Positions 18,001 to 21,000 of a DNA stretch of 64,000 nt are shown one piece after another (the stretch's first letter is position 1; the number at the start of each line of letters is the position of its first letter). A program made the position numbers. Origin of the DNA: Mytilus californianus (lineage: Eukaryota); the NCBI RefSeq assembly GCF_021869535.1, contig NW_026262685.1, forward strand, positions 1,488,001 through 1,552,000, written 5' to 3'.

Positions 18001-21000
18001 TAAATTTCAACCTTTCAGTGAGGCAAAAATAAATGAATATCAATTAAATGGATAACACTGTTACATCCACTTTGTCCTATGGTATGACTGTTTGATTGAC
18101 TGATTGTTGCTTGCTTAACTTTCATTGGCAATCCTATAGTATATATAATCAGTCCCAACTATGTTTCAGTAGCTTAACTGCCCCATATAAAGTTTTAAAT
18201 TGTCTACAATGTATTTCTAATTTATTTTCATGTTTTTCTTTTGTTTTATTTGGATATGTCTCAAAATTCTCGAAATTAAAAAAATAATAGACAGAAAATA
18301 TTTGAAATATCTAAAACCATTCAACAGTATGAAACAAAAAATGCTTGATATTAAATGAAAAAGTCTTAATGTCTATTTCTTTCAATGATATTTTTACCAA
18401 TATATGATTAGGAATGATGATTTGCAATACTGCATATATTTAGCATATTTGATCTTTATGTATACTTACATCATACAGTGAGGATACAATCCTTGAGTGG
18501 CAGTGTACATAAGTGGCTCTGTTTGTCTTTCTGTATCTAACACTTGGAATCATATAGATAATATCAAAGTCATATAAATCTCTACGAGGTATCATATCTT
18601 TTAAAATACTGCTTTCAGGAAAAATCTGTAATAATCTGGAAAAAAATAAAATATTCTAAGTTATTTCTTGGATAGTAAACCATTATATTAAGACAGTAAG
18701 AATAAAAATATTAAAAAAGATAAACACACACAAAAATAACATACCTAGAAAACAAAAGAAATCAAAACATAACAAATAAGTGAAAAAGTGACATGTGATA
18801 ACTATTCTACTTCAAGATCAGGAAAGGACAACAAATTTAATAAAAATTACAACATTTGTACAAAGAATGATACAAACATAACCTTATTTTAGAGTACATA
18901 ATAATAAGCTTGAAAGAGACTTAGTCAAAGATCTGCCTCTAATATCAGATTTCCTAAATGACAAAACAATGTTGTTCATCCCATGATTAATAATACCTGT
19001 GGTTATCTCCCATGTCACAATCAGTAGGAATAAATAAAAATAATCAAATTATCTCCCTTAGTCCATTAAATCATTGTGACCACCGTGTCAGATTTTATAA
19101 GGGGATTTAAAAATGGTCAAATTGCATGTCAAAATTTCATTAATAATGATTTTAACAAGTTCAAACTTTCTCTTGATCTATAATTAAGTCAGTAATAACA
19201 GGTTAATGTATGATTTGGTCAATTAAAGGACTTAGAATCATGAACCAAGATATCCTGTCCACGCTAAATCTAATTTTATTACTTCTGAAATGTGCATTTT
19301 TTAGCCTGATTAACCATAAGATTTATGACTATTTTACAAGCAATCTAAACATATAATTATCACAACAAATAAAACCTGTTCAACTTTAAGGTGGAGTTAC
19401 CTCAAAATTTAGAAATAAAGCATGGACTTAACTAAGCTTACACAACCACAATCTTAAATTAACATCTACTCTTTCTGTTTGGATTGGGTTTTAAATGATA
19501 TGTATGCTAAACAATGAAACAATTTTCAAGCTCCATAAGATGTATGAATAGTCCATGGTGTAATACAGTTTAAGTTCTCAACTCAAGTCAGTAATCTTAT
19601 CAGTAAGATTGTTTTTTTCTATATCGTAGAGCCTTTTCATCTTTTATGGAATAAGTTTTTTGATGACAGAGACAGTACCATTCCTTTATCTATGACATGT
19701 CTAGACTAAGAGTTATTTTGACCTTAACATAAAGTATAAACTAATGTTGAAGAGAGAATATTGATTGCTACATGTTTTAATCTGGATTTATTTTCATGTT
19801 GGGTTGCTGACATATTCCCTCGACTACCTGGTATTCTTTTTATTTTTTTGTCTAATTCCAATATTTTACATTAAGGTTTTGACTGTTGTACAATCAGCAC
19901 TTACCATTACTCTATATAACAATGCCACTCCTTGGATACATCTGATGATGGTGGACATCCTCCTCACTGCCACCACGGCCACTATCACTCGTCACATCCT
20001 CACTTAAATCACTACGTGTATCTTCACCATGGCGTTTACTCCAAATCTGTCGTCTCTGCAAAAAAATCGTTTATATGTTAAGTTTTCAACAAGAAGAAAA
20101 TACGAGAAAACACATATTAGTATGAATAGTTAAATGTCACCTTCTTTATAAAATCTTTCTTGATAGTAAGACAATAAATACATTGTTCAGACTTTAAACT
20201 TTTTCCCATGATTTCATACTTGAAAATCGGTATAAAAAATTAATATTGTCCTAACAAAATCACTCAACTCTCACCTTATAAAGTATCTATTTTGGCAAAT
20301 CTCAATAGCAAAAAAAGAGAACTACAAGTGACAATTTTAATGTCAGGAGACAGACATATCTAACAATTAAATTTAAAAGATTTCTGCAGAAGTTCTTGTC
20401 ACAGAAGTCATACTCCAGGTGTAAATGGGGGGCACCATATAATTCTATTACTATGACTATTATTTCCCAATGACATTCACATAAAATCACGATAATTAGT
20501 CCAATATTATTACAATGTTAAGAAATATTCTGACATCTTAATACCGAGAGGTTGGACATATTTTATATGAAGGGATAAAACCACTCCATGACGTCCATGC
20601 AGGAATATCAGTCCTAAATGTTACATCGAGTACCTCTTGACAATAAAAGAAATCTTCGCATTACAATGTCAAAACCGTATTTAATCAAATTATGTTCAGT
20701 TCATTTGAACTGTAGTCAAAGTGCATAGCTCCCACAGAGAAAAGCCTTTCTATTTAATGTATATTTAATCCCATTTTTCAGTATTTGAGTGAGAGAAAGG
20801 TACGCAGACACGCCCCCGTTTTTCTCATAATAAAAACTTAACATCCCTTGATTAAATGTTCTTTGAACTTTTAACAATAAGGCTCAACACAGAAACAAGT
20901 ACAATATTCATTTTCCCCTCCAAGAAACGAAAGAAAGAAGAAAAACTTCAAAGATAAAAGGATTATGAATAAATATGGGGCAATCTGTTTAAATATTTAC

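What the first reader, a model, noticed from the sequence alone, without database searches (positions are those of the whole stretch)
19899..19920. In-frame TAG seven bases before a perfect, phase-conserved splice donor in protocadherin B
Seen: the frame fixed by DSGRGGSEED reads GTT ATA TAG AGT AAT G|gtaagt. The donor is phase 1, exactly like the paralogous exon of gene A, which continues into a long coding exon. The + strand ORF track (...ITLYNN..., cta = rc of TAG) confirms the bases. Established: stops within ~50 nt of the last junction escape nonsense-mediated decay. Inference: a nonsense allele or fixed truncation giving a 990-aa protein ending GIVI with a vestigial 3'-UTR intron; or stop-codon readthrough; or a consensus error.
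Basis: partly seen in the sequence, partly recalled or inferred. Interest (0 to 1): 0.65.

Follow-up and report, generated by a model that had tools for sequence, protein, structure and literature searches.

The report
Normal stop codon, then 3'UTR intron
The TAG is the ordinary, long-conserved stop codon of a short-tailed mussel protocadherin gene, and the splice donor just after it most likely opens an intron in the untranslated tail, so the finding is real but ordinary.

Summary
The bases are as described. On the minus strand the frame reads GTT ATA TAG AGT AAT G|GTAAGT, with the TAG at 19914-19912 and the donor GT at 19904-19903. The window is Mytilus, not human. Its three coding exons match the public M. 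californianus protein "protocadherin-9-like isoform X1" (990 aa) at 901 of 902, 43 of 43 and 47 of 47 aligned residues.

The same end is annotated in M. galloprovincialis, M. edulis and M. trossulus. Orthologues from oyster, pearl oyster, scallop and ark shell stop 11-13 residues after the DSGRGGS motif with [IV]-x-I. They form one clade that is sister to the long-tailed clade of gene A. So the TAG is an ancient natural stop. It is not a nonsense allele, an assembly error or a readthrough site.

The donor is the best in the exon (7 of 8 consensus positions). Older gene models from M. coruscus and M. edulis splice from it to an acceptor at 18636|18635. It is therefore probably a stop-proximal 3'UTR intron, a known and common class. 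No RNA data were available. Interest is low.

The parts
26128..28830 (-). Gene B coding exon 1. It runs from the ATG at 28830 and is 2703 nt (901 codons). It encodes the signal peptide, 7 cadherin repeats, the transmembrane segment and the start of the cytoplasmic tail, and ends CAG|GTTTGT in phase 0. An internal alternative donor, GAA|GTGAGT after 26224, gives the annotated isoform X2.
   Evidence: Pfam Cadherin, 7 stretches, E 1.3e-100; Cadherin_2; 901 of 902 aligned residues identical to P0129
23045..23170 (-). Gene B coding exon 2 (126 nt, 42 codons, phase 0 at both ends; ends GAT|GTAAGT).
19905..20055 (-). Gene B exon 3 (151 nt). It has 47 codons, RRQIW...DSGRGGSEED...YPRSGIVI (20055-19915), then the TAG, then 7 untranslated bases AGTAATG.
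   Evidence: (47 of 47 identical to P0129)
19912..19914 (-). TAG, the natural stop codon of gene B.
19899..19904 (-). GTAAGT splice donor, 7 nt after the stop.
   Evidence: It is used by the M. coruscus and M. edulis models.
18636..19904 (-). Putative 3'UTR intron (1269 nt, GT...AG; the acceptor is ttttatttttttccag).
   Evidence: It is inferred from gene models of other species, and no transcript data were seen.
18470..18635 (-). Putative 3'UTR exon 4. Its start is fixed by the acceptor. Its end is uncertain: another GTAAGT lies at 18469-18464, and AATAAA-like signals lie near 18.2 kb.
324..473 (+). Gene A (long-tailed paralogue whose 5' part lies outside the window). This is the cytoplasmic exon with phase 0 at both ends, the counterpart of gene B exon 2.
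2254..2374 (+). Gene A exon holding DSGNGGSDED. It runs from phase 0 to phase 1, has the donor G|GTTGGT, and is the paralogue of gene B exon 3.
3035..3528 (+). Gene A last coding exon (163 codons plus stop). It ends ...DTVV and holds LSTFGH and MSTFPR.

Best explanation
Gene B is an intact Mytilus protocadherin gene with 7 cadherin repeats. Its normal stop codon is the TAG at 19914-19912. It belongs to a short-tailed paralogue family that was already truncated before the pteriomorph bivalves diverged. In this family the protein ends a few residues after the DSGRGGS motif with a conserved hydrophobic-x-hydrophobic C-terminus (GIVI in Mytilus; SVQI, SIMI and GIMI elsewhere). This matches the class II PDZ-ligand pattern, which needs a free carboxyl end. 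That need would explain why the position of the stop is held (inference). The GTAAGT 7 nt downstream is most likely a real donor. It would remove a 1269-nt intron from the 3'UTR and join to an acceptor at 18636|18635. A junction this close to the stop is of the stop-proximal type that is tolerated in many genes. Shown here: the sequence, the conserved stop, the family relationships, and the use of the junction in two public gene models. Inferred: actual splicing in vivo, PDZ binding, and homology of this intron with gene A's last coding intron.
For: Identity with public models: the window's exons match M. californianus protocadherin-9-like X1 (P0129, 990 aa) at 901 of 902, 43 of 43 and 47 of 47 aligned residues. 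Eight NCBI models from four Mytilus species (X1 at 989/990 aa, X2 at 957/958 aa) all end YPRSGIVI, and the last 14 residues are invariant. Conservation of the stop: of the 39 stored proteins holding DSGxGxS, 16 are short-tailed and all 16 end [IV]-x-I. They include Saccostrea, Pinctada, Pecten and Tegillarca, plus two unnamed short ORFs that end at the same place. Phylogeny: the 7 bivalve short-tailed proteins form one clade (SH-aLRT 100). It is sister (99) to a clade of 5 long-tailed proteins that includes gene A's orthologue, and this holds with or without the tail columns. Stop-to-stop change: the M. edulis frame-shifted model reads K where the window reads R across the stop. Together with the NCBI M. 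edulis model ending GIVI, this implies TAA there instead of TAG (inference). Donor use: the M. coruscus models (P0126, P0128) and the M. edulis model (P0003) end ...VALLY[RK]VM|IITDFS. VALLYRVM is the window's 19928-19905 in a shifted frame. IITDFS-stop occurs once in all six frames of the window, directly after ...ttccag at 18635 on the minus strand. Donor strength is 7 of 8 against 5 or fewer for the 20 other GT/GC sites in the exon. Literature: stop-proximal 3'UTR introns are frequent (861 zebrafish, 921 mouse and 1239 human genes; PMC7310861, passages read). The class II PDZ motif is X-Phi-X-Phi-COO- (PMC7094393, passages read).
Against: No RNA-seq, EST or mRNA record could be seen, so splicing at 19905|19904 is supported only by gene models. 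Those two models are themselves flawed, because each invents a frame-shifting mini-intron of about 40 nt to pass the stop. They may come from similar pipelines. A second GTAAGT at 18469-18464 could mean a further 3'UTR intron more than 50 nt from the stop, which would not fit the simple picture of escape from nonsense-mediated decay. AATAAA-like signals lie inside the putative intron, so some transcripts may end there unspliced. PDZ binding is pattern matching only. The searches aimed at widening the orthologue sample found little: 4 hits and 4.
Confidence: 0.85

Rival explanations
1. The GTAAGT is a chance match and is not used. The mRNA runs on unspliced and is polyadenylated a short way downstream.
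For: GTAAGT is not rare in this AT-rich window: 28 copies against 38 +/- 6 expected. An AATAAA-containing run lies about 70 nt after the stop. No transcript data were seen. The models that use the donor are otherwise faulty.
Against: It is the best donor match in the exon (7 of 8). Models from two species join it to the same strong acceptor (polypyrimidine tract plus CAG) at 18635. Its placement mirrors gene A's intron in phase and in exon order.
Confidence: 0.2
2. The TAG is a nonsense allele, a recent truncation, or an assembly or consensus error in this one sequence.
For: None beyond its unusual look next to a donor.
Against: The same C-terminus appears in the NCBI models of four Mytilus species, and the stop is implied in M. 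coruscus. Orthologues in four other bivalve orders end at the equivalent place. The 925-codon open frame is intact and 96% identical to M. galloprovincialis.
Confidence: 0.01
3. Programmed stop-codon readthrough, or an upstream alternative donor, produces a longer isoform that continues into downstream coding sequence.
For: The donor keeps phase 1, like gene A's coding intron. One weak GT at 19939 (4 of 8) would open a 65-codon frame in exon 4.
Against: Past the TAG the frame closes after 5 codons if unspliced (SNGKC then TGA). If spliced it closes after SN plus 11 codons (DYYRFFLKAVF then TAA). No homologue of gene A's last exon lies downstream of gene B in the window (best off-target E is 1.1). 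No isoform in the 11-member cluster passes the stop except the frame-shifted older models. A 65-codon open frame is unremarkable here, since 51 open frames of at least 60 codons occur in 16 kb. The TAG AGT context is not a readthrough context that I know of (recalled, not tested).
Confidence: 0.03

Closest known systems
NCBI model 'protocadherin-9-like isoform X1' of Mytilus californianus (XP_052103234.1, 990 aa; P0129), with the X1/X2 models of M. galloprovincialis, M. edulis and M. trossulus
   Same: It is the same gene. All three coding exons match, and it has the same stop after ...YPRSGIVI and the same alternative donor that gives X2.
   Different: One residue of 902 differs in exon 1. 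I could not see the mRNA records, so whether they include the 3'UTR intron is unknown.
Stop-proximal 3'UTR introns (less than 50 nt after the stop) described in vertebrates (PMC7310861)
   Same: The intron starts a few bases after a genuine stop, within the distance usually taken to escape EJC-dependent nonsense-mediated decay.
   Different: This case is in a mollusc and the intron starts 7 nt from the stop. Its use is inferred from gene models only. How nonsense-mediated decay treats such introns in bivalves is not known to me, and that paper reports that some proximal introns are still decay-sensitive.
Gene A in the same window, a long-tailed paralogue (M. coruscus PCDHD1, P0135, 1153 aa)
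   Same: It has the same exon order and phases: a large exon, a phase 0/0 exon, then the DSGxGGS exon running from phase 0 to phase 1. It belongs to the sister clade.
   Different: Gene A's phase-1 intron is coding and leads to a 163-codon exon with LSTFGH/MSTFPR (which match the WIRS pattern) and a DTVV end (class I PDZ pattern). Gene B stops 2 codons and 1 base before its donor.
Vertebrate delta-protocadherins with long and short cytoplasmic isoforms (Pcdh1, Pcdh7, Pcdh11X; review PMC7339444, passages read)
   Same: Both are protocadherins with seven cadherin repeats and a cytoplasmic tail whose length varies.
   Different: In vertebrates the short and long tails are splice isoforms of one gene. 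Here the short tail is fixed in a separate paralogue. Orthology to any vertebrate delta-protocadherin was not tested.

Membership tests
Protocadherin (non-clustered, delta-like) | Six or seven tandem extracellular cadherin repeats with the protocadherin-type N-terminal domain | tested here: met
   Pfam Cadherin matched 7 stretches (E 1.3e-100) and Cadherin_2 matched at residues 28-108 (E 1.8e-14).
Protocadherin (non-clustered, delta-like) | Ectodomain and transmembrane segment encoded by one large exon | tested here: met
   A single 2703-nt coding exon (28830-26128) covers residues 1-901. The transmembrane segment was read by eye from the hydrophobic run and not run through a predictor.
Protocadherin (non-clustered, delta-like) | Cytoplasmic conserved motifs CM1/CM2 (and CM3) of the vertebrate delta family | not tested
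   No reference motif sequence came from any call. The DSGRGGS motif is conserved among molluscan relatives, but its equivalence to CM2 is only a recollection.
Stop-proximal 3'UTR intron | A genuine stop codon upstream of the intron | tested here: met
   The stop is conserved in 4 Mytilus species and in orthologues of 4 other bivalve orders.
Stop-proximal 3'UTR intron | Donor less than 50 nt after the stop | tested here: met
   There are 7 nt between the TAG and the GT.
Stop-proximal 3'UTR intron | The intron is actually removed from transcripts | tested here: inconclusive
   Two older gene models (M. coruscus, M. edulis) use the 19905|18635 junction. No RNA data were reachable.
Class II PDZ-binding C-terminus | X-Phi-X-Phi at the free carboxyl end | tested here: met
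   The ends are GIVI, SVQI, SVMI, SIMI and GIMI. All 16 short-tailed proteins end [IV]-x-I. The pattern is as given in PMC7094393.
Class II PDZ-binding C-terminus | Binding to a PDZ domain | not testable with these tools
   No partner is known, and no complex prediction was run.
Programmed stop-codon readthrough | Conserved, protein-like coding potential after the stop | tested here: not met
   The frame closes after 5 codons unspliced or 13 codons spliced. No annotated isoform extends past the stop.
Nonsense allele or pseudogene | Stop absent from close relatives, and the reading frame otherwise decaying | tested here: not met
   The stop is shared by all relatives seen, and the 925-codon frame is intact.

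The most novel reading that the evidence does not exclude
The short-tailed family arose before the pteriomorph bivalves diverged. A duplicate of a long-tailed protocadherin acquired a stop codon in the last few codons of its penultimate exon. The ancestral tail carried WIRS-like motifs and a class I PDZ-type DTVV end. Because the stop lay within a few bases of the last exon junction, the truncated mRNA would have escaped nonsense-mediated decay from the start. The new I-x-I end took on a class II PDZ-type role. The former last coding intron has persisted ever since as a stop-proximal 3'UTR intron, still in the old phase.
Probability: 0.3. Interest if true: 0.35.

Novelty: already known. Interest (0 to 1): 0.15.

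Why it matters
It matters little beyond correct annotation. The stop and the 990-aa product are already in public gene models. The case is a useful caution in two ways. First, an in-frame stop just before a strong donor need not be a lesion. Second, the older M. coruscus and M. edulis models appear to have invented tiny frame-shifting introns in order to carry the coding sequence across a 3'UTR intron. If the evolutionary reading holds, it would be a tidy example of a paralogue that lost its actin-linking tail through a truncation tolerated by nonsense-mediated decay, then kept the orphaned intron for hundreds of millions of years.

Tried and rejected
1. A homologue of gene A's last coding exon downstream of gene B. 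tblastn of the 163-aa exon against the whole window at E up to 50 found only the exon itself, and the best other hit had E 1.1. Rejected.

2. Exon 4 as coding sequence. Phase 2 is open for 65 codons, but open frames of that size are common here: 51 of at least 60 codons in 16 kb. No public model reads it. Not pursued.

3. The idea that gene B's last three codons and stop derive from the 5' end of gene A's intron. The MAFFT alignment looked suggestive, but the local score is reached by 1104 of 5000 shuffles and by 111 of 575 windows of gene B's own intron. An earlier run used a start coordinate that was off by a few bases and was also non-significant. No support.

4. Widening the orthologue sample. 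The 47-aa exon against the 1.84-billion-protein library gave 4 hits. Residues 855-990 of P0129 gave 4 hits. Both queries were too short or too diverged to add taxa.

5. The Lottia short-tailed model (P0088). It groups with a long-tailed Patella protein rather than with the bivalve short clade. I treat it as an incomplete or independent model and do not count it as an orthologue.

6. Rfam and tRNA scans of the window found nothing.

Not checked: orthologous genomic DNA and RNA reads of any mollusc, because no eukaryotic genome or read collection was open. Supplementary tables of the papers were also closed, though none bears on the claims made here.

Full report
**What is in the sequence**

Read on the minus strand, the stretch 20055-19899 is an exon preceded by ...tttttgcag. 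It encodes RRQIWSKRHGEDTRSDLSEDVTSDSGRGGSEEDVHHHQMYPRSGIVI. The TAG follows at 19914-19912, then AGT AAT G, then GTAAGT at 19904-19899. The window has no N and is about 30% G+C.

**Organism and gene**

- The 925-codon open frame at 28836-26059 (minus strand) carries seven Pfam Cadherin stretches and the protocadherin-type Cadherin_2 domain.
- Its best relatives are Mytilus proteins. The window is a mussel, not human.
- The 90%-identity cluster of the best hit holds NCBI models from M. californianus, M. galloprovincialis, M. edulis and M. trossulus, and older models from M. coruscus.
- The M. californianus model "protocadherin-9-like isoform X1" (P0129, 990 aa) maps to the window as three coding exons with 901 of 902, 43 of 43 and 47 of 47 aligned residues identical.
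- The exon limits are 28830-26128, 23170-23045 and 20055-19915 plus the stop.
- An internal donor after 26224 explains the annotated X2 isoforms.
- Searches with window sequence were made exon by exon. The joined coding sequence was not built or searched.

**The TAG is the natural stop**

- All eight NCBI models from four Mytilus species end ...VHHHQMYPRSGIVI. This stretch is invariant, while residues just upstream vary.
Sixteen of them stop within 25 residues after it, and all 16 end [IV]-x-I. Examples are Saccostrea SVQI, Pinctada SIMI, Pecten SIMI and Tegillarca GIMI. Two unnamed short ORFs also run into a stop at the same place.
- The other 23 continue for 35-236 residues, and 22 of them end in V. 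Five, including gene A's orthologue, end DTVV.
- A maximum-likelihood tree of 31 of these proteins was built. Isoform duplicates and fragments were left out. The seven bivalve short-tailed proteins form one clade (SH-aLRT 100), sister (99) to five long-tailed proteins that include gene A's orthologue. The result is the same when everything from the motif onward is removed.
- Both clades contain mussel, scallop and pearl oyster. The duplication and the truncation therefore predate the divergence of those orders.
- The Lottia short model groups with a long-tailed Patella protein and was not counted as an orthologue.
- The M. edulis frame-shifted model reads K where the window reads R across the stop. 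Together with the NCBI M. edulis model ending GIVI, this implies a TAG-to-TAA change that keeps the stop (inference).

**The donor after the stop**

- GTAAGT as such is not rare: 28 in the window, 13 on the minus strand, against 38 +/- 6 in shuffles.
- Here it matches 7 of 8 positions of AG|GTAAGT. The other 20 GT/GC sites in the exon match 5 or fewer.
- The older M. coruscus models (P0126, P0128) and the M. edulis model (P0003) end ...VALLY[RK]VM-IITDFS.
- VALLYRVM is 19928-19905 read in a shifted frame.
- IITDFS followed by a stop occurs once in the six frames of the window. It lies at 18635 on the minus strand, directly after ttttatttttttccag.
- Those models therefore splice 19905|19904 to 18636|18635. 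They reach the shifted frame only by inventing a mini-intron of about 40 nt inside the exon (19967-19931 when the M. coruscus model is mapped to the window). I take that to be an artefact of forcing a coding sequence across a 3'UTR intron (inference).
- This is indirect evidence that the junction is real. No transcript data could be seen.
- Exon 4 may end at another GTAAGT (18469-18464) or run on to AATAAA-like signals near 18.2 kb.

**Nothing codes beyond the stop**

- Unspliced, the frame closes after SNGKC.
- Spliced, it closes after SN plus DYYRFFLKAVF.
- Gene A's 163-codon last exon has no counterpart downstream of gene B.

**Relation to gene A**

- Gene A lies on the plus strand, and its large exon is outside the window. 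Its exons are at 324-473 (phase 0/0), 2254-2374 (phase 0 to 1) and 3035-3528. The PPESG|CRPGS junction is confirmed by M. coruscus P0135.
- Gene B has the same order and phases. The post-stop intron is therefore plausibly the positional homologue of gene A's last coding intron.
- Direct DNA similarity between gene A's intron start and gene B's last codons is not above chance.
- The long last exon of the gene A clade carries [LF]STFG[HR] in 5 of 5 members and [ML]STFPR in 3 of 5. Both fit the WIRS pattern Phi-x-T/S-F-x-x (PMC10318009, passages read).
- The short-tailed clade has no conserved match: 4 of 6 have none and 2 of 6 have single, different matches.

**How it most likely works**

- The protein is a seven-repeat adhesion receptor with a short cytoplasmic tail.
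- Its conserved X-Phi-X-Phi carboxyl end fits the class II PDZ-ligand pattern (PMC7094393, passages read). Gene A's DTVV fits class I. Both bindings are inferred.
- The 3'UTR intron belongs to the common stop-proximal class: 861 zebrafish, 921 mouse and 1239 human genes (PMC7310861, passages read). That paper also shows that some such introns are still sensitive to nonsense-mediated decay.
- Vertebrate delta-protocadherins make short and long tails by splicing (PMC7339444, passages read). Here the two forms are separate paralogues.

**Verdict**

The product is already annotated. Interest is low.

Noticed in passing
window 324-473, 2254-2374, 3035-3528 (+): This is the tail of a second protocadherin (gene A), convergent with gene B. 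Its last exon holds LSTFGH and MSTFPR, which fit the WIRS (WAVE-complex binding) pattern, and it ends DTVV (class I PDZ pattern). The motifs are conserved in Pinctada, scallops and an unnamed relative. The short-tailed gene B family lacks them.
   Followed up: partly
window 5644-8593: This is a large minisatellite of about 122 copies of a 24-nt unit (48-nt and 122-nt higher-order periods, 71-75% matches). It causes the strong G-over-C skew at 6-8 kb and the spurious 60-164-codon open frames on both strands.
   Followed up: partly
window 10411-10839: A very regular tandem array: 17 copies of a 25-nt unit with 97% matches.
   Followed up: no
window 62619-64000: A G+C-richer satellite with 134/268/403-nt periods (83-92% matches) that runs off the end of the window.
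   Followed up: no
window 41625-42752 (+): A 375-codon open frame with a reverse-transcriptase domain (Pfam RVT_1, E 2.2e-12). It is probably a retroelement fragment upstream of gene B.
   Followed up: no
window 19967-19931 (-), mapped from M. coruscus P0126/P0128 and M. edulis P0003: Public older gene models of two Mytilus species place a frame-shifting 'intron' of about 40 nt inside the DSGRGGS exon. They end in a 14-residue out-of-frame tail, apparently to carry the coding sequence through the stop and the 3'UTR intron. These look like annotation errors.
   Followed up: partly
window 18470-18635 (-): The putative 3'UTR exon is open in one frame for its whole length and is followed by another GTAAGT at 18469-18464. 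If that donor is used, a second 3'UTR junction would lie about 170 nt after the stop.
   Followed up: partly
window 39911-40601 and 51758-52247: Further tandem arrays with periods of 65/31 nt and 192 nt.
   Followed up: no
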